From positions 12,212 through 76,211 of the IMG/VR virus record IMGVR_UViG_3300048930_000409: a stretch of DNA of 64,000 bases. One strand, 5' to 3'. The stretch comes from a virus. Positions 13,463 through 20,307 of this stretch are shown one piece after another. Position numbers and translations under genes: made by a program. The first letter of the stretch is position 1; every line of letters starts with the position of its first letter. A model generated the notes under the pieces. That model was not told where the DNA came from, did no database searches, and saw only the letters and a list, made by a program, of their open reading frames with translations.

Positions 13463-14320
13463 GTGAACTATACTGAAGAGATCGTCATCATCGGCGGCGG
13501 CATGGTCGGGCGCGTAGCCCAGCGATACATGCCGGATGCCTTGATTCTGGATTGGGGGCCGCCCCCGGTCGCCACGCCCCGGCCACAGACGTACGGCGCT
13601 ATCTACTGGTGGGAGCCAGTTGCCGACCTGCCGTGTGTCCAGTTCCAGGTCCTGACCACCATCGACGGCGAGACGCCCACCCCCGAGGGCATTCGCGCGT
13701 ACAAGGAACGCGTGGGCAAGGGATTCGAGGTCCAGACCCGGCCCGATGCCGTCGCCCGGCAGTTCCAGCCGCTGTCGCACGGGTATGCGCCGACGTCGTT
13801 CCCAGCGCCGTCCCGCATCATGTACCGCGCCAGAGTCGAGCGTATCGACCCCGACGTCCGCATGCTGCACATGGTGAACGGGGACACGTACCTGTACACA
13901 CACCTGGTGTCGACTATCCCGCTGCCGGCGCTGCTGAAGATGCTGCCGTTCGACGCCGTCGATCAGTTCGAGCATATGGAGTTCCGGTCGCGCCCCATCT
14001 TTGTCACGGTTGCTCCTGACGACCATGAAGCCCGCACCGTGCTCCAGGTCAACTACTCGACGACGGGCAATGCTTACCGCGAGACGCGGCATCTGGACGG
14101 GTCCACCCATCGGGAGTATGCTTCGGCGCCGATGTACACCGAGTTGCCCGTGAAAAAGCTGGTGCCGGGGCGCATCTACGACGCTTTGCAATCCGCCGAA
14201 CTGTTGCTGCACCTGCGTGGGATGGCCATCCACAGCTTCGGCCGCTATGGTCGGTGGGACTCGGACGAGTTGCTGCACATGACCGACGCCCAGCTCCGGA
14301 CGTTCGCGTCACTTCTCTAG
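13463..14320 (+). CDS. FAD-dependent oxidoreductase-like protein (HemY/UDP-galactopyranose mutase-like fold)
   Basis: IVIIGGGMVG Rossmann motif, YTHLVSTIPL, C-terminal FGRYGRW. Confidence 0.7.
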   Translation: MNYTEEIVIIGGGMVGRVAQRYMPDALILDWGPPPVATPRPQTYGAIYWWEPVADLPCVQFQVLTTIDGETPTPEGIRAYKERVGKGFEVQTRPDAVARQFQPLSHGYAPTSFPAPSRIMYRARVERIDPDVRMLHMVNGDTYLYTHLVSTIPLPALLKMLPFDAVDQFEHMEFRSRPIFVTVAPDDHEARTVLQVNYSTTGNAYRETRHLDGSTHREYASAPMYTELPVKKLVPGRIYDALQSAELLLHLRGMAIHSFGRYGRWDSDELLHMTDAQLRTFASLL

Positions 14321-14328
14321 GAGACATC

Positions 14329-14463
14329 ATGAAGATACTTCGTGCCCTTTGGCGCCTGATCGTCAGCGACGACAAGCCATTCAGTCAGGAATGGATGGAT
14401 TCCCTCAAGTACGACCGCCAGGGATGGGCGGACGCCCCCTCATGGAAGAGGCTGGGACGATGA
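14329..14463 (+). CDS. small hypothetical protein
   Basis: AGGAG RBS; ATGA overlap. Confidence 0.5.
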   Translation: MKILRALWRLIVSDDKPFSQEWMDSLKYDRQGWADAPSWKRLGR

Positions 14464-15431
14464 GCGAGTGGGGAAAGATCTGGCACGACCAGTACGGGTT
14501 CAATCGGAAGTTTCGGCCCGACCCCGAGACGGACGCGGAACGAGCCGAGCAGGTCAAGGACATTGCCCTGTTGATGCAGTCTGAGATCCATGAGTTGCTC
14601 CAGACCGTGGCGTGGAAGAAGCATCGGAAGGACACCCGGCACCGCCCGAACATGGCGCATAGCCATGAAGAACTCACGGACATCTTCAAGTACTTCGTAA
14701 CGCTGTGCAACCTGTTTGATGTCACGCCAGAAGCGCTCCAGCGCTTGTACTGGGCTAAGTCGGCCGTGTGCGAGCAGCGATATGTCGAAGAGTGGGTGTC
14801 CGACTACGCGCGGGGCAACCTGCGGGCCAAGGTGGCCATCGTCGACCTGGACAACGTCATCTTTGACTACATCGATCACTTCGGCAACTTCCTGTACCTG
14901 CAGCCCCTGGGCGACGACGTACGGCTGACTCTGATTCGCCTGATCGGCGAACGCAAGTGGATCAGCGCCGAGTCGACAGGCATTCCGGTGTCGGTGTTCG
15001 AGGCGTACAAGCACATGTACCGGACCAGCGGCGCGAAGGCGCACCTGCCCTTGATGCCGTACGCCAAGGAATTTATGCAGGCGCTTCGCGGGTTGGGATA
15101 CGTCATCATCGTTGTCACGTCACGGCCGATTGACCGCTACCCGAACCTGATGATGGACACGATTGCCAGTCTGAACCGACACGGCCTGCCGTACGACCAC
15201 GTCTGGCACGGCCCGTCAAAGAAAACCGTCCTCGTCGAACGGCTGTCGCCGATGCCGTCGCAGATCTTCGCGATCGACGATGACCCGAAGTATGTCCAGG
15301 AATACGTCAGCCTGGGCATTCCTGTCTTCCATGTGTTGAACGGAGGGACGACCCCGCTGACACAGACGGTCGGGCGCGTACCCGTCGCCGACCTGGAAGA
15401 TGCGTTGAACTGCCTGCACCTGATCGGATAG
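14460..15431 (+). CDS. all-alpha dNTP pyrophosphohydrolase (dimeric dUTPase/MazG-like) fused to a HAD 5'-nucleotidase-like domain
   Basis: SEIHELL..VAWKKH...EELTD; then DLDNV, VTSR, IDDD HAD motifs. Confidence 0.85.
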   Translation: MSEWGKIWHDQYGFNRKFRPDPETDAERAEQVKDIALLMQSEIHELLQTVAWKKHRKDTRHRPNMAHSHEELTDIFKYFVTLCNLFDVTPEALQRLYWAKSAVCEQRYVEEWVSDYARGNLRAKVAIVDLDNVIFDYIDHFGNFLYLQPLGDDVRLTLIRLIGERKWISAESTGIPVSVFEAYKHMYRTSGAKAHLPLMPYAKEFMQALRGLGYVIIVVTSRPIDRYPNLMMDTIASLNRHGLPYDHVWHGPSKKTVLVERLSPMPSQIFAIDDDPKYVQEYVSLGIPVFHVLNGGTTPLTQTVGRVPVADLEDALNCLHLIG

Positions 15432-15436
15432 CACCC

Positions 15437-16591
15437 ATGCCTGACTACGCTGACGCGGGCCACCGCCCGCACGCCGACCACCGGGGGGAGACCCCTGACT
15501 TCAAGATCACGAATGGCCCCGAGTCCATTTCCGTGACGCTGGACACCTGGGGGCCTCGCGACTACTACTCCGCGATGTTCGACTACCTCCAGTCGAACTG
15601 GGGCGGGGCGCCGTCGCGGATTCAGGAGGCGTTGGACCACCCAGAAATTGACGTCGACCACGATGTCGAAGTGTACCTCGACGCGTGCTTCGGCGGGCGC
15701 ACACTCCAGCAAGTGTTGGAGGGCATCACGTTCTGGTTCACCATCGACGGCGTAACTCGCGCCATGACTCATGAGATGGTGCGTGCTCGGTTCGCCGCGT
15801 TCATGCAGCATGGCGGGCGCGACAACGACTGGCGCCATCGGGACTGGACCATGCCCGAGACGATCCGCCGGGCCTCAGGCGCTCGCATGCCGCCGCATCC
15901 CACAGCGCCCTGGGACGGCAAACGAGGAAAAGACCGAGTCGACGCCAAGAACCAGTGGCTGAGAGAACAGCTTGACGCCGACCCGACACTCCGGTGGACG
16001 TGTATCACCGACCACCAGCCTGTCGAAGCGCTGCTCGGCGCCTACGACGAAATCCTGCCCGATGACCGGTTCGGGTTGCAGGATGTCATCGAACACCACC
16101 TCCGTGAAGGCAAGCGCATCTACGCCGCGCTGGTCGACGCAGGCATACCGTGGCAGGACGCGCGGCGGCTGCTGCCCATCGGCACGCAGACGTACATCCA
16201 CGGGATTTACAACTTCATTTCGTTGCGCGACTTCCTGGCCAACCGGATGGAGTTCATCATGGACTGGGAAATCAACTGCGTCGCGCAGCTGATGTACCGC
16301 GAGATCCTGATGAAGTGCCCGCCTCTCATCGGCAAGTACCTGGGGTCGCACTCCGACCGCCAGGGCCGTGCCGCGTTCGCCGGACTGGACTCGTGGCCCC
16401 CGGACATGAAGTACCAGCCCACGTTCGAGCAGGAAGACCCCGTGCTGACGCCGCGCCAGCATCGCCGTGAGCAGATGCCGTTCTGGGTCCTGGCCCAGTC
16501 GTCGTTGGACGGCGGGCCGGTGAAGTGGATTCCCACGAACGGCACCTACCCCCACGACCATCCCGACGCCCCCAAGCCGAGGACTCGGTGA
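15437..16591 (+). CDS. divergent ThyX (flavin-dependent thymidylate synthase) family protein
   Basis: FTIDGVTRAMTHEMVRAR, GIPWQDARRLLP, FLANR..WEI match the ThyX fold; RHRx7S signature altered to RARx7G. Confidence 0.8.
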   Translation: MPDYADAGHRPHADHRGETPDFKITNGPESISVTLDTWGPRDYYSAMFDYLQSNWGGAPSRIQEALDHPEIDVDHDVEVYLDACFGGRTLQQVLEGITFWFTIDGVTRAMTHEMVRARFAAFMQHGGRDNDWRHRDWTMPETIRRASGARMPPHPTAPWDGKRGKDRVDAKNQWLREQLDADPTLRWTCITDHQPVEALLGAYDEILPDDRFGLQDVIEHHLREGKRIYAALVDAGIPWQDARRLLPIGTQTYIHGIYNFISLRDFLANRMEFIMDWEINCVAQLMYREILMKCPPLIGKYLGSHSDRQGRAAFAGLDSWPPDMKYQPTFEQEDPVLTPRQHRREQMPFWVLAQSSLDGGPVKWIPTNGTYPHDHPDAPKPRTR

Positions 16592-17614: not shown

Positions 17615-17760
17615 TGGCGACATCGACCAATCCCCGTGACTGGAAAATCGAGTTGGCGTTGCTGCTCCGCGAGTTGACCGAGATCGCCAAGGTCGCGCGG
17701 GCCAGTTTGGAACAGGAAGCCGAGCACGCTCGGAAAATTCGGGAACGGTCCACGCGATGA
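17614..17760 (+). CDS. small coiled-coil protein
   Basis: Coupled overlaps on both sides. Confidence 0.5.
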   Translation: MATSTNPRDWKIELALLLRELTEIAKVARASLEQEAEHARKIRERSTR

Positions 17761-18671
17761 AGGTCAGCGTCAAGCGCGTCGGGTCGCGGCCGGTCGACCA
17801 TCCGTCCGAGGACCGCCCACAGCTGTGGCAAAAGTCCATGGCGGTGTGCATCCCGTCCTCGGGGCGGCCCGCGCTCTTGGCTAAGACGCTGCACACGCAA
17901 CCGTTCCTGAACGACCGGTCCACCTTCATCGGCGTGGCCACTCACGAAGCCGCCGAGTACCGGACGATGCTTCGCACGGTCGCGCCGTCAGTCCGACTGG
18001 TGACGTACGACAACCCCGAGGGGTCTATTGCGGTCTGCCGTGAGCACTTGCGACAGGCCGCGTTGGACGCCATTCCTGGCGGCCGGATGGACCGCTTCTG
18101 GGTCGTCGTCACGGACGATAACGCGTCGTACTCGTACACGGCGCTCCAGACCTTGGTCGGGGTCGCGTCGTCGTGGCGGGAGCAGCCCTGCATCGTCGCA
18201 GGGATGCACGGCACGGCGGCGCACTTCGACCGTCACCGCATCGGAGAAATGGAGGTGCATGCCGGGTATCGATCCTATCCGCAGGTCGCCATGATCTTCC
18301 AAGTCTACCCCGCGTCGATGTACGCGGACTACGCGTATCCCGCTGATGCGTATGGACTGGATGACCGGCACCTGGCGTTTTGGGCCATTGCGAAAAAAGG
18401 TTTGACCCGTAGTCAATTCCGCGTTGCAATGGACGCACCGTTTCGGAAGTCGCGGTACCAAGCTGGCGGGCAAGGCGACGCGAGGAAACGGGCACGAAAG
18501 ACGGGGCTGGCCATCGCACGGTTGGCCCTGGACTTCCCTGAATTGGTCGGGACACGCGGCACGTTCCCGACTCCATGGCAAATCATCTTTGCCCTTGCCG
18601 AGGGCAAGCAGGTTGACCGGTTGGCGGCCGGCAGCATGCGTAGTGAATCCGCCTTGATCCACCAGGAGTAG
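17757..18671 (+). CDS. GT-A fold glycosyltransferase, TET-associated (TAGT/GREB1)-like DNA base glycosyltransferase candidate
   Basis: VCIPSSGRP, R-helix, VVVTDDN, LDD, AGG motif order. Confidence 0.7.
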   Translation: MKVSVKRVGSRPVDHPSEDRPQLWQKSMAVCIPSSGRPALLAKTLHTQPFLNDRSTFIGVATHEAAEYRTMLRTVAPSVRLVTYDNPEGSIAVCREHLRQAALDAIPGGRMDRFWVVVTDDNASYSYTALQTLVGVASSWREQPCIVAGMHGTAAHFDRHRIGEMEVHAGYRSYPQVAMIFQVYPASMYADYAYPADAYGLDDRHLAFWAIAKKGLTRSQFRVAMDAPFRKSRYQAGGQGDARKRARKTGLAIARLALDFPELVGTRGTFPTPWQIIFALAEGKQVDRLAAGSMRSESALIHQE

Positions 18672-19657: not shown

Positions 19658-20038
19658 ATGTCAGACATGCCGTCATCGTTCGCCGAATTGTTGCGGGGCC
19701 TGCAGGACCCTCCAGCGGACCCGCCCGTGCCCCCGGACCCCGACACCATGGACGTCGGCGAGTCCCGCCCCGTGACCCTGCAGGAGGCGTTGTGGGTCGA
19801 AGAGATCCGGGCCATGGCCGAACCATCCGCCAAGATCCGGGCCATCACCGCGTTGCTGCATGTCCGGTCAGGCGAGACGGTCAAGCATGAGCAGTTGGCC
19901 ATCATGCCGCTGGAAGACTTTCACCGGGCCGTGTCTCGCATGATGGCGGACCTGATGCCCAAACTGGAGAAGGCTCAGCACCTCGCGTCGATGCTGAACT
20001 TGTTCCGTCAGACGCCGCCGAACGGGAGCGGACATTGA
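19658..20038 (+). CDS. hypothetical protein
   Basis: GGAGG RBS. Confidence 0.65.
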   Translation: MSDMPSSFAELLRGLQDPPADPPVPPDPDTMDVGESRPVTLQEALWVEEIRAMAEPSAKIRAITALLHVRSGETVKHEQLAIMPLEDFHRAVSRMMADLMPKLEKAQHLASMLNLFRQTPPNGSGH

Positions 20039-20307
20039 AGGCCCAGCTGAACGACGGCCCACAGGTGTGGTTCTGGTGCGCTGGGTGCGAGACGCATCAT
20101 GCAATCGACCCAACCAAGTGGACATGGAACGGCGACACTGAACGGCCAACGTTCCGGCCATCGGTACTCGTGACCTACACATTCGGGGTCGAGCGCACGC
20201 CCAAGCGTTGTCACTCGTTCGTAACCGACGGGCATATTCAGTACCTCGACGACTGCACACATGCGCTCGCCGGGCAGACCGTGCTGTTGGAGGATGTCGA
20301 GCTATGA
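20035..20307 (+). CDS. DUF6527-like Cys/His protein
   Basis: CAGC..HH..WTWNG..PTFRPS..CHSFVTDG.IQYL.DCTH.LAGQTV. Confidence 0.75.
   Translation: MKAQLNDGPQVWFWCAGCETHHAIDPTKWTWNGDTERPTFRPSVLVTYTFGVERTPKRCHSFVTDGHIQYLDDCTHALAGQTVLLEDVEL

What the first reader, a model, noticed from the sequence alone, without database searches (positions are those of the whole stretch)
15437..16591. ThyX homolog with a rewritten active-site signature
Canonical ThyX has RHRxxSxxExSxRY. Here it reads RARFAAFMQHGGRD: His to Ala, first Ser to Ala, signature Ser to Gly, Tyr to Asp. The preceding Gln is Glu, and the NxRS motif is NFIS. The substrate-binding arginines (GGR, DARR, ANR) and WEI are kept, with a large insertion and a C-terminal extension. 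Inference: it binds a pyrimidine monophosphate but performs different chemistry from reductive methylation.
Basis: partly seen in the sequence, partly recalled or inferred. Interest (0 to 1): 0.75.

Follow-up and report, generated by a model that had tools for sequence, protein, structure and literature searches.

The report
Remodelled phage ThyX in three-gene module
A gene in an uncultivated wastewater phage encodes a well-folded relative of the flavin-dependent thymidylate synthase ThyX that keeps the nucleotide-binding residues, has lost several cofactor-contacting ones, and always follows two nucleotide- or sugar-handling genes, so it may make a modified DNA base rather than thymidylate, though this is unproven.

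Summary

All nucleotide-binding arginines are kept. Residues that contact FAD or folate, or that lid the reaction centre, are replaced: H53L, T55Q, H79A, R165I, S88G, Y91D.

This is not a one-off. It is a well-supported clade of more than 300 metagenomic phage proteins with an invariant MQHGGRDNDWRH loop and conserved N- and C-terminal extensions.

In 30 of 30 related loci with enough flank, the gene directly follows two others:
- a small homolog of UDP-galactopyranose mutase (UGM);
- a fusion of a dUTPase/DCTPP1-like pyrophosphatase with an NT5C nucleotidase, the family of the PBS1 dTMP phosphatase.

Variable tailoring genes lie nearby: a GT-A glycosyltransferase in this window, and an SDR or a radical-SAM enzyme elsewhere. 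No ThyA and no second ThyX is present.

Best reading (about 0.45): it is the entry enzyme of a thymine-replacing DNA modification, turning dUMP into 5-hydroxymethyl- or 5-hydroxy-dUMP.

Main rival (about 0.33): it is still a thymidylate synthase with altered cofactor handling.

The scan's other first-reader notes flagged the same cluster in this genome. No experiment exists.

The parts
15437..16591 (+). ThyX-like gene (g43), 384 aa: Thy1 fold with a remodelled active-site loop
15437..15526 (+). N-terminal arm (residues 1-30), absent from canonical ThyX; invariant D6, H9, R10, H12
   Evidence: Alignment A1 and alignment A5 against canonical forms. pLDDT 88-98, with no regular secondary structure before residue 24.
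15704..15724 (+). L90-Q-Q92-V-L-E95-G96, replacing the canonical G-H53-x-S/T55-x-x-E58-H59 motif
   Evidence: L90 and Q92 are invariant in the close family.
15758..15838 (+). Rewritten ThyX signature, residues 108-134 (R108 ... R116-A-R118 ... M-Q-H-G-G-R128-D-N-D-W-R-H134)
15878..16072 (+). Family-variable helical insertion (about residues 148-212) relative to canonical ThyX
   Evidence: Alignments. Helices 164-181, 183-186 and 194-202 at pLDDT 89-95.
16154..16273 (+). C-terminal half of the active site: Q240-D-A-R243-R, N259-F-I261-S, N-R270, M-D276-W-E-I
   Evidence: HMMER alignments to T. maritima ThyX; alignment.
16334..16591 (+). Conserved C-terminal extension (residues 300-384). Invariant S304, S306, D307, W320, K325, R340, H342, Q346, W364. 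Ser residues stand where shorter relatives have a Cys cluster.
   Evidence: Modelled at pLDDT 97-98 except the last few residues.
13463..14320 (+). g41: 285-aa minimal UDP-galactopyranose-mutase-like flavoprotein, always two genes upstream
14349..15431 (+). g42: fusion of an all-alpha dNTP pyrophosphatase (dUTPase_2 / DCTPP1-like) with an NT5C-type HAD 5'-deoxynucleotidase. The likely true start is near 14460.
   Evidence: Pfam and PHROG hits. Family-wide hits: dUTPase_2 in 14 of 25 members, NT5C PF06941 in 9 of 25 (best E 9.5e-8). PDB profile hits to dimeric dUTPases, DCTPP1 and 5'(3')-deoxyribonucleotidases. Conserved ExxE...ExxD, DxDxV, TSR, K and DD motifs.
17757..18671 (+). g46: GT-A-fold (GT2-like) glycosyltransferase candidate, an accessory part of the module
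   Evidence: No Pfam or PHROG hit. ESM Atlas structure matches to GT2 clusters at TM 0.60-0.66. Invariant T-D-D-N motif. Present in 14 of 27 loci with at least 4.5 kb downstream and in 8 of 20 records.

Best explanation
The gene encodes a functional, strongly remodelled ThyX-fold enzyme. It still binds a pyrimidine deoxynucleoside 5'-monophosphate, most likely dUMP, in the canonical pocket. It probably still stacks a flavin on the base, but it no longer completes ordinary folate-dependent reductive methylation.

I propose it is the nucleotide-level entry enzyme of a phage DNA-base replacement pathway, converting dUMP to a C5-oxygenated product. That product would be 5-hydroxymethyl-dUMP if the methylene intermediate is hydrated instead of reduced, or 5-hydroxy-dUMP if reduced flavin plus O2 is used without folate.

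Proposed roles of the other genes:
- The upstream fusion protein g42 first hydrolyses a dNTP to a dNMP with its pyrophosphatase domain. Its NT5C domain, of the same Pfam family as the PBS1 dTMP phosphatase, then dephosphorylates dTMP. Together these would deplete thymidine nucleotides, supply dUMP, or both.
- Host kinases and the phage PolA would put the new base into DNA.
- In this phage the UGM-like g41 would make a UDP-furanose donor, and the GT-A enzyme g46 would glycosylate the new hydroxyl in DNA.
- Related phages replace g46 with other tailoring enzymes.

Shown here: fold, residue pattern, family size, conservation, gene linkage, and absence of another thymidylate synthase.

Inferred: substrate, product, cofactor use, and every step of the pathway.
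For: 1. All dUMP-contacting arginines and Q124 are invariant. Of the side chains that contact FAD, three of five are changed: H79 to A/T/S, T55 (M. tuberculosis S71) to Q, and R165 to a variable residue. The Tyr 'lid' that shields dUMP C5 and flavin N5 from solvent is replaced by Asp (roles from PMC6514825; mapping). Opening the lid and adding D129, N130 and D131 is the kind of change that would admit or activate water or O2.
2. H53, which in my own recollection of the T. maritima folate complexes stacks on the pterin (those complexes and H53 mutants are listed), is Leu here.
3. The new loop MQHGGRDNDWRH, the N-terminal arm and the C-terminal extension are invariant across sequences only 53-60% identical overall. 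That indicates selection on a new active-site architecture rather than decay.
4. The order g41, g42, g43 holds, tightly adjacent, in 30 of 30 loci with enough flank. The triad persists in relatives of 43% and 29% identity (L069 and L080).
5. The HAD domain of g42 belongs to PF06941. The experimentally characterised PBS1 dTMP phosphatase, which removes thymidine from the pool, is in that family (PMC12697855).
6. g41 is a UGM homolog by both sequence and fold. A phage-encoded UGM is proposed to supply UDP-galactofuranose for glycosylated 5-hydroxycytosine DNA in Rhizobium phage RL38JI, where the entry enzyme is a thymidylate synthase (ThyA) homolog that binds flavin (PMC13326640).
7. Variable tailoring genes sit in the same replication module: GT-A g46 here; a FabG-like SDR plus two unknown genes, or a radical-SAM/SPASM enzyme, in relatives.
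8. No ThyA-family gene, the usual entry enzyme, occurs in this genome or in 20 related records.
9. GC-only 6-mer palindromes are avoided much more strongly (sum observed/expected 0.60) than A/T-containing ones (0.88). That is the direction expected if T, not C, is protected.
Against: - There are no biochemical data for any member.
- Each replaced residue is individually non-essential in studied ThyX. S88A, S88C, H53A, H53D and Y91F variants have all been crystallised (entry titles). From my own recollection rather than from a tool result, S88A keeps activity.
- The essential arginines remain, so dTMP synthesis is still chemically possible.
- The enzyme is the only thymidylate-synthase-like gene in these phages. 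That is what one expects of an ordinary auxiliary thymidylate synthase.
- A complete 44-kb relative (L107 record, direct terminal repeats, GGRDND loop, 45% identity) has neither g41, g42 nor g46.
- The triad also accompanies a ThyX-like protein that keeps Ser and Tyr (L080...QQSSRY). The partners therefore predate the loop change.
- g41 is present in records that lack g46, so the link between mutase and glycosyltransferase is not obligatory.
- Several T-containing palindromes are clearly avoided: GATC 271 observed against 431 expected, GTGCAC 0 against 11, TGCGCA 6 against 21.5. This argues against blanket protection of T.
- No dNMP kinase was recognised in the genome.
- Cultured actinophages with related non-RHR ThyX-like genes and the same phosphatase family are not reported to have modified DNA.
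Confidence: 0.45

Rival explanations
1. It is still a flavin-dependent thymidylate synthase (dUMP to dTMP). FAD, folate and reductant contacts have been re-engineered through the new N-terminal arm, the loop and the C-terminal extension. The dUTPase-like domain of g42 simply feeds it dUMP.
For: It scores above the Pfam Thy1 cut-off and has an intact ThyX fold. R116, R118, R128, R243, R270 and Q124 are kept. It is the only thymidylate-synthase-like gene in this genome and in 20 related records. It stands alone in a complete relative (L107). The N-terminal domain of g42 is most similar to dimeric dUTPases. Palindrome avoidance at T-containing sites suggests ordinary, restrictable DNA. Related non-RHR forms in cultured actinophages are routinely annotated 'ThyX-like thymidylate synthase'.
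Against: H53, T55, H79, S88, Y91 and R165 are all lost together, and a six-residue invariant acidic/aromatic loop appears directly after R128. An obligatory neighbour carries an NT5C-type nucleotidase, whose family includes a dTMP phosphatase; that would be futile next to a dTMP synthase. The UGM-like gene is obligatory and tailoring enzymes recur in the module. One phage record carries a non-RHR type and a His-containing Thy1 gene side by side.
Confidence: 0.33
2. It acts on dCMP rather than dUMP, producing 5-methyl-, 5-hydroxymethyl- or 5-hydroxy-dCMP. The DCTPP1-like domain of g42 would act as a dCTPase, as gp56 does in T4.
For: New invariant acidic residues lie near the base pocket: D129, D131, and the clade-specific Q-to-D276 change one helix turn after R270. 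This resembles the Asn-to-Asp switch that confers dCMP preference in ThyA homologs (PMC13326640). The g42 profile also hits dCTP pyrophosphatase 1. Known glycosylated phage bases with a UGM in the pathway are cytosine derivatives.
Against: R270 (T. maritima R174), the donor that pairs with uracil O4, is invariant. GC-only palindromes are the most strongly avoided: CCCGGG 3 observed against 47.6 expected, CCGCGG 13 against 66. That is unexpected if every C were modified. The NT5C family is pyrimidine dUMP/dTMP-oriented, and its characterised phage member is a dTMPase.
Confidence: 0.1
3. It is a catalytically inactive nucleotide-binding protein, for example a dUMP/dTMP sensor, sequestering protein or scaffold for the neighbouring enzymes.
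For: Several cofactor-contacting residues are lost.
Against: The whole active-site loop and all substrate-binding arginines are extremely conserved. Invariant new polar residues are typical of catalysis or cofactor binding. The family is large and old.
Confidence: 0.05

Closest known systems
Canonical flavin-dependent thymidylate synthase ThyX (T. maritima TM0449, M. tuberculosis ThyX; Pfam Thy1 PF02511)
   Different: The RHRxxSxxxxSxRY signature is not met (R-A-R...G-G-R-D). H53, T55, H59, H79, S88, Y91 and R165 are replaced. There is an extra 30-residue N-terminal arm, a roughly 50-residue helical insertion and an 85-residue C-terminal extension. It has obligatory partner genes. Sequence identity is only 15-20%.
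'ThyX-like thymidylate synthase' of cultured actinophages (Mycobacterium phage Onyinye gp86, Streptomyces phage Gibson gp46) and other non-RHR phage forms
   Same: They lack H53 (GGLQxxLE) and H79 (R-S/T-R) in the same way. The same phages carry a homolog of the g42 HAD phosphatase. They belong to the same broad non-canonical part of the tree.
   Different: They keep Ser88 and often an aromatic residue after R90 (QQSMRA / QQSSRY). They lack the GGRDNDWRH loop, the N-terminal arm and the long C-terminal extension. No UGM-like gene occurs in any cultured phage record. They are only about 30% identical. None has been characterised biochemically as far as the searched literature shows.
PolB, the ThyX-fold UMP/dUMP methylase of polyoxin biosynthesis (PDB 4P5A/4P5B)
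   Different: PolB is no closer to this protein than ordinary ThyX is. To my knowledge it keeps the canonical signature and still performs methylation, and it is not a phage enzyme.
ThyA-family entry enzymes of phage pyrimidine hypermodification (T4 dCMP hydroxymethylase, SPO1-type dUMP hydroxymethylase, RB69 gp48 / RL38JI 5-hydroxy-dCMP synthase)
   Same: The proposed role is the same: a thymidylate-synthase relative makes a C5-oxygenated dNMP that later receives sugars. It is accompanied by dNTP/dNMP hydrolases, glycosyltransferases and, in RL38JI, a UDP-galactopyranose mutase. The 5-hydroxy-dCMP synthases bind flavin (PMC13326640).
   Different: The fold is entirely different (ThyA versus Thy1). 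Here the role is only inferred. No phage dNMP kinase was found.

Membership tests
Thy1/ThyX structural family (Pfam PF02511) | Significant match to the family HMM above the gathering score | tested here: met
   66.5 bits against a cut-off of 24.8, covering residues 75-295. The genome search gave the same result.
Thy1/ThyX structural family (Pfam PF02511) | ThyX fold | tested here: met
Flavin-dependent thymidylate synthase (functional ThyX, EC 2.1.1.148) | ThyX signature RHRxxSxxxxSxR(Y) | tested here: not met
   It reads R116-A-R118-F-A-A-F-M-Q-H-G126-G-R128-D129. His, both Ser and Tyr are replaced.
Flavin-dependent thymidylate synthase (functional ThyX, EC 2.1.1.148) | dUMP-binding arginines (T. 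maritima R74, R78, R90, R147, R174) | tested here: met
   R108, R116, R128, R243 and R270 are invariant or nearly so in 135 sequences. Roles are taken from PMC6514825.
Flavin-dependent thymidylate synthase (functional ThyX, EC 2.1.1.148) | FAD-contacting side chains (RHR plus M. tuberculosis S71 / T. maritima T55 plus M. tuberculosis R190 / T. maritima R165) | tested here: not met
   Only the two Arg residues remain. H79 becomes A, T55 becomes Q92 and R165 becomes I261. Whether flavin still binds is not testable here.
Flavin-dependent thymidylate synthase (functional ThyX, EC 2.1.1.148) | His53 next to the folate/flavin site | tested here: not met
   L90 is invariant in the close family. All non-RHR relatives read GG(x)LQxxLE.
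Flavin-dependent thymidylate synthase (functional ThyX, EC 2.1.1.148) | Makes dTMP and complements thyA | not testable with these tools
   This needs expression and assay.
UDP-galactopyranose mutase family (for neighbour g41) | FAD Rossmann motif, UGM-type fold and the diphosphate-binding Arg | tested here: met
UDP-galactopyranose mutase family (for neighbour g41) | Full three-domain architecture with a mobile substrate flap (367-510 aa) | tested here: inconclusive
   g41 is only 285 aa, although 279 of its residues align across the UGM chain. Which UGM elements are missing was not resolved.
NT5C 5'(3')-deoxyribonucleotidase (PF06941; for the C-terminal domain of g42) | HMM match and HAD motifs DxDxV, T/S, K, DD | tested here: met
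   9 of 25 family members match, best E 9.5e-8. The window's own copy matches only the generic HAD model at E 0.0016. The motifs are conserved. Substrate specificity was not tested.
Phage pyrimidine hypermodification clusters (ThyA-type entry enzyme + hydrolase + kinase + transferases) | ThyA-fold synthase and a dNMP kinase | tested here: not met
   There is no PF00303 match in this genome or in 20 relatives. No kinase was recognised. The resemblance is functional logic only.

The most novel reading that the evidence does not exclude
A ThyX-fold protein has become a folate-independent flavin monooxygenase. Reduced flavin plus O2 would hydroxylate C5 of the stacked pyrimidine, giving 5-hydroxy-dUMP (or 5-hydroxy-dCMP). 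That base would replace T (or C) in virion DNA and be galactofuranosylated using the co-encoded mini-UGM. This would be a second, independent route from the thymidylate-synthase world into glycosylated-pyrimidine DNA, mirroring the recently described flavin-binding ThyA homologs. It would also be the first Thy1-fold enzyme with non-methylating chemistry.
Probability: 0.15. Interest if true: 0.9.

Novelty: new variant of a known kind. Interest (0 to 1): 0.65.

Why it matters
- Every known Thy1-fold enzyme methylates uracil, so a clade with different chemistry would extend flavin enzymology. It would also give a second evolutionary entry into phage DNA hypermodification, which so far always starts from ThyA-fold enzymes.
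- The clade is large (hundreds of clusters, in wastewater and other metagenomes) and is uniformly annotated 'thymidylate synthase ThyX'. If that is wrong, the misannotation is systematic.
- The three-gene module gives a compact set of clonable genes, so the question can be tested directly.
- If the enzyme proves to be an ordinary thymidylate synthase, it would show that H53, H79, S88, Y91 and R165 are all dispensable together. That is relevant to ThyX mechanism and to inhibitor design.

Tried and rejected
- Complex prediction on g43 with g41 gave no verdict (score 0.01). It is neither evidence for nor against binding.
Context for distant relatives came from IMG/VR scans instead.
- tblastn of g43 against 50,697 cultured phage records found nothing at E 1e-5. 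Megablast of 20 kb also found nothing. At E <= 1 only distant ThyX genes appear.
- g41 has no tblastn match in cultured phages.
- Pfam and PHROG scans of about 45 other ORFs of the genome found no dNMP kinase, dCMP deaminase, RNR or DHFR.
- The 'Nmad1-like' gene mentioned in another first-reader note could not be confirmed. The only trace was a 0.84 Atlas lead to a cluster in which 10% of members carry DUF1599, for a relative's gene. Pfam gave no hit even at E <= 10.
- Literature searches found no paper on non-RHR ThyX chemistry.
- The look-up of sequencing runs returned only assembled contigs from wastewater metagenomes; one run holds 63% of the words and is possibly the source sample. No read-level test for base modification was possible, and read laying was not used.
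- I considered PolB-like ribonucleotide use. There is no specific similarity beyond the shared fold.
Full report
**What the window is.** The window is bases 12212-76211 of a 76,211-bp IMG/VR virus record that CheckV rates 100% complete. G+C is about 63%. The genome has a plus-strand replication module and a minus-strand structural and lysis module:
- SNF2 helicase, PD-(D/E)XK nuclease, Sak4-type AAA_24 ATPase, SSB-like protein, family A DNA polymerase and Toprim primase-helicase;
- an endolysin and large tail-like ORFs.

The only sequencing run that clearly holds this stretch is a wastewater metagenome, which may be the source sample.

**The observation.** ORF 15437-16591 (+) is real and encodes 384 aa.
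- It passes the Pfam Thy1 gathering score (66.5 bits against 24.8).
- With a 135-sequence alignment, AlphaFold2 gives a very confident model (pLDDT 95.3, pTM 0.93).
- Every significant PDB match is a ThyX or the ThyX-fold methylase PolB.

The quoted motif is correct. I anchored T. maritima numbering through HMMER alignments to PDB chains (chain index minus 12). I then carried it over by MAFFT alignments that include canonical relatives.

Kept residues:
- R74 / M. tuberculosis R87 = R108
- R78 = R116
- R80 = R118
- Q/E86 = Q124
- R90 = R128
- R147 = R243
- N163 = N259
- R174 = R270
- WEI

Changed residues:
- H53 to L90
- T55 to Q92
- H59 to G96
- H79 to A117
- S83 to A121
- S88 to G126
- Y91 to D129
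- R165 to I261
- AQWEI to M-D276-WEI

A review of ThyX structures gives the roles (PMC6514825):
- The RHR triplet, M. tuberculosis S71 and M. tuberculosis R190 hydrogen-bond FAD.
- M. tuberculosis R87, R95, S105, R107 and R199 hold dUMP.
- The Tyr after the last Arg is a lid that shields dUMP C5 and flavin N5 from solvent.

The nucleotide site is therefore conserved. Three of five FAD side-chain contacts, the lid, and the His next to the folate site are gone.

Glu for the 'preceding Gln' is normal variation, since M. tuberculosis ThyX has HELIRHR. 'RAR' is peculiar to this sub-branch; most of the family has R-T/S-R and one extra residue.

**It is a family, not an accident.**
- The word-indexed search found 304 cluster representatives. 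The best 120 score E <= 1e-108, are 330-510 aa long, and nearly all come from metagenomic contigs of up to 78 kb.
- The exhaustive HMMER search found 29 representatives (50% clusters) at E <= 1e-30, then a continuum of shorter non-RHR forms, then canonical ThyX at about 1e-8.
- In 26 members of 53-92% identity to the query, invariant residues include M123-Q-H-G-G-R-D-N-D-W-R133, D6, H9, R10, H12, L90, Q92, E95, D241-A-R-R244, R270, D276-W-E, R340, H342 and Q346.
- A FastTree of 161 Thy1 proteins places the query in a starred clade of 41 rows (support 98) that carries D276 and mostly the GGRD loop. That clade is nested among other His-less 'RxR' forms and is separate from a starred canonical RHR clade of 43 rows. 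Supports elsewhere in the tree are modest.
- Cultured phages hold only distant relatives (about 30% identity), such as Mycobacterium phage Onyinye gp86 and Streptomyces phage Gibson gp46. These are annotated 'ThyX-like thymidylate synthase'. They share the loss of H53 and H79 but keep Ser88.

**Context.** I fetched 50 IMG/VR loci for the close family and 59 more for shorter relatives.
- In all 30 loci with at least 2.3 kb upstream, the order g41, g42, ThyX-like holds, with the genes tightly adjacent or overlapping.
- The block lies between a PD-(D/E)XK nuclease and the Sak4 ATPase.

*g41 (window 13463-14320)* is a 285-aa flavoprotein.
- It has the GGG Rossmann motif, an acidic residue at the end of beta-2, and a GRFxxW C-terminal motif.
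- The family profile finds the same UGMs by sequence (E 4.3e-9). The invariant Y205-R206 aligns to the Y-R327 of A. fumigatus UGM.

*g42 (14349-15431; probable start near 14460)* is a two-domain fusion.
- The N-terminal domain is an all-alpha NTP pyrophosphatase related to dimeric dUTPases and to dCTP pyrophosphatase 1.
- The C-terminal domain is a HAD domain of the NT5C deoxyribonucleotidase family.
- The PBS1 dTMP phosphatase, which removes thymidine nucleotides in a dU-DNA phage, belongs to that same Pfam family (PMC12697855).

*Downstream genes vary.*
- About half of the loci, including the window, carry g46 (17757-18671). This gene has no Pfam hit but a GT-A/GT2-like predicted structure and an invariant TDDN motif.
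- Loci without g46 carry a FabG-like SDR plus two unknown genes.
- Some loci carry a radical-SAM/SPASM enzyme.

*Across 20 related records* (9 of them at least 90% complete):
- none has a ThyA-family gene;
- 19 have exactly one Thy1 gene;
- 17 have g41, 16 have g42 and 8 have g46.

The triad persists in relatives of 43% identity (L069) and 29% identity (L080). L080 keeps ...QQSSRY, so the partnership is older than the GGRD loop. One complete 44-kb relative with the GGRDND loop (L107) has none of the partners.

**How it most likely works.**

Shown:
- a conserved pyrimidine-dNMP pocket in an intact ThyX fold;
- coordinated replacement of the cofactor and lid residues by a new, invariant, polar loop plus two conserved extensions;
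- obligatory linkage to a UGM-like flavoprotein and to a fusion of a dNTP pyrophosphatase with a deoxynucleotidase;
- recurrent tailoring enzymes in the same module;
- no alternative thymidylate synthase or ThyA-type hydroxymethylase.

Inferred: the enzyme still positions C5 of dUMP against a flavin, but the shielded, folate-dependent reductive methylation has been altered. There are two possible routes:
- The exocyclic methylene intermediate is captured by water, giving 5-hydroxymethyl-dUMP.
- With H53 gone, folate is not used at all, and reduced flavin plus O2 hydroxylates C5, giving 5-hydroxy-dUMP.

The product would replace T while g42 hydrolyses thymidine nucleotides. It would then serve as the acceptor for sugars supplied through g41 and transferred by g46 or other enzymes.

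The closest precedent is recent. ThyA homologs of RB69, DLP3 and Rhizobium phage RL38JI make 5-hydroxy-dCMP and bind flavin. RL38JI also encodes a UGM that is proposed to provide UDP-galactofuranose for its glycosylated base (PMC13326640). Here the same logic would be built on the unrelated Thy1 fold.

I put this reading at about 0.45.

**Why I do not go higher.**
- Each replaced residue is dispensable in studied ThyX variants, and the essential arginines remain.
- The enzyme is the only thymidylate-synthase-like gene in these phages.
- It can stand alone (L107).
- The partners also accompany a more canonical loop (L080).
- g41 does not co-vary with g46.
- No kinase was found.
- The genome shows classic restriction-site avoidance. 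It is strongest at GC-only palindromes: CCCGGG 3 observed against 47.6 expected, CCGCGG 13 against 66, and a summed observed/expected of 0.60. It is also present at GATC (271 against 431), GTGCAC (0 against 11) and TGCGCA (6 against 21.5). Non-palindromic 6-mers show no such tail.

The GC-only bias fits a modification of T rather than C, but avoidance at T-containing sites argues against blanket protection.

A still-active thymidylate synthase with re-engineered cofactor contacts is therefore the main rival (about 0.33). A dCMP-specific enzyme follows (about 0.10). It is suggested by D129, D131 and D276 and by the DCTPP1-like domain, and opposed by the invariant R270 and the palindrome pattern. 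An inactive binding protein comes last (about 0.05).

**Novelty and verdict.** The protein is a member of the Thy1 structural family, but it fails the defining sequence signature of functional ThyX. It is best filed as a new variant of a known kind. I found no paper describing this clade or any non-methylating Thy1 enzyme. Other first-reader notes of this scan flagged the same cluster in this same genome. I confirmed their gene identifications except for the 'Nmad1-like' gene. The finding is a good, directly testable lead rather than a demonstrated new chemistry.

Noticed in passing
L044:7001-8533 (same protein as P0101): One family member carries a C-terminal acyl-carrier-protein-like PP-binding domain (PF00550, E 2.5e-10). 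The usual phosphopantetheine Ser reads Glu (DLGFDELD), so it probably cannot be modified. Relatives lacking the glycosyltransferase carry a FabG-like SDR nearby.
   Followed up: partly
L026:9599-10888 and L049 (cluster c25); L029:11596-12330 and L032:5710-6627 (cluster c12): Related phages carry alternative enzymes in the same replication module. One is a radical-SAM/SPASM protein next to the GT-A gene. The other is a FabG-like short-chain dehydrogenase with two unknown genes (c14, c11) in loci that lack the GT-A gene. The pattern looks like interchangeable tailoring sets.
   Followed up: partly
G020 record: L067:5983-6798 and L114:578-1525: One 55.6-kb phage record encodes two Thy1-family genes about 8 kb apart. 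One is a His-less RTR type (..QESQRLND). The other is a 315-aa form that keeps GHHSCFEH and reads LRTHR...ESQRR, with a large insertion. This suggests the two types are not redundant.
   Followed up: partly
P0169, P0184, P0188, P0218, P0260, P0200 and others: Another metagenomic ThyX-like clade reads R-x-R...Q-C-G-D-x-D. It has Cys at the Ser88 position and Gly where the dUMP-binding Arg90 should be. This is a different and possibly more radical remodelling.
   Followed up: no
window 16334-16591, and alignment A1 columns about 395-465: In shorter relatives the C-terminal extension holds a Cys cluster (CxC...C...C). In this family the first two positions are Ser (GSHSD). Many members insert a four-Cys zinc-ribbon-like segment (CxxC...CxxC) between K325 and R340; the window's copy lacks it.
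   Followed up: no
whole genome (G000), e.g. CCCGGG, CCGCGG, GCGCGC, GATC: There is strong avoidance of palindromic restriction-type sites: CCCGGG 3 observed against 47.6 expected, CCGCGG 13 against 66.4, GCGCGC 12 against 54, GATC 271 against 431, GTGCAC 0 against 11. Non-palindromic 6-mers show no outliers.
   Followed up: yes
window 20035-20307 (+): A small ORF between the SSB-like gene and the DNA polymerase matches DUF6527 (E 1.3e-12). Its function is unknown.
   Followed up: no
window 14349-14460: The longest ORF of g42 starts at a TTG about 37 codons upstream of where all homologs begin to align. An ATG near 14460 (MSEWGK...) is the more likely start.
   Followed up: partly
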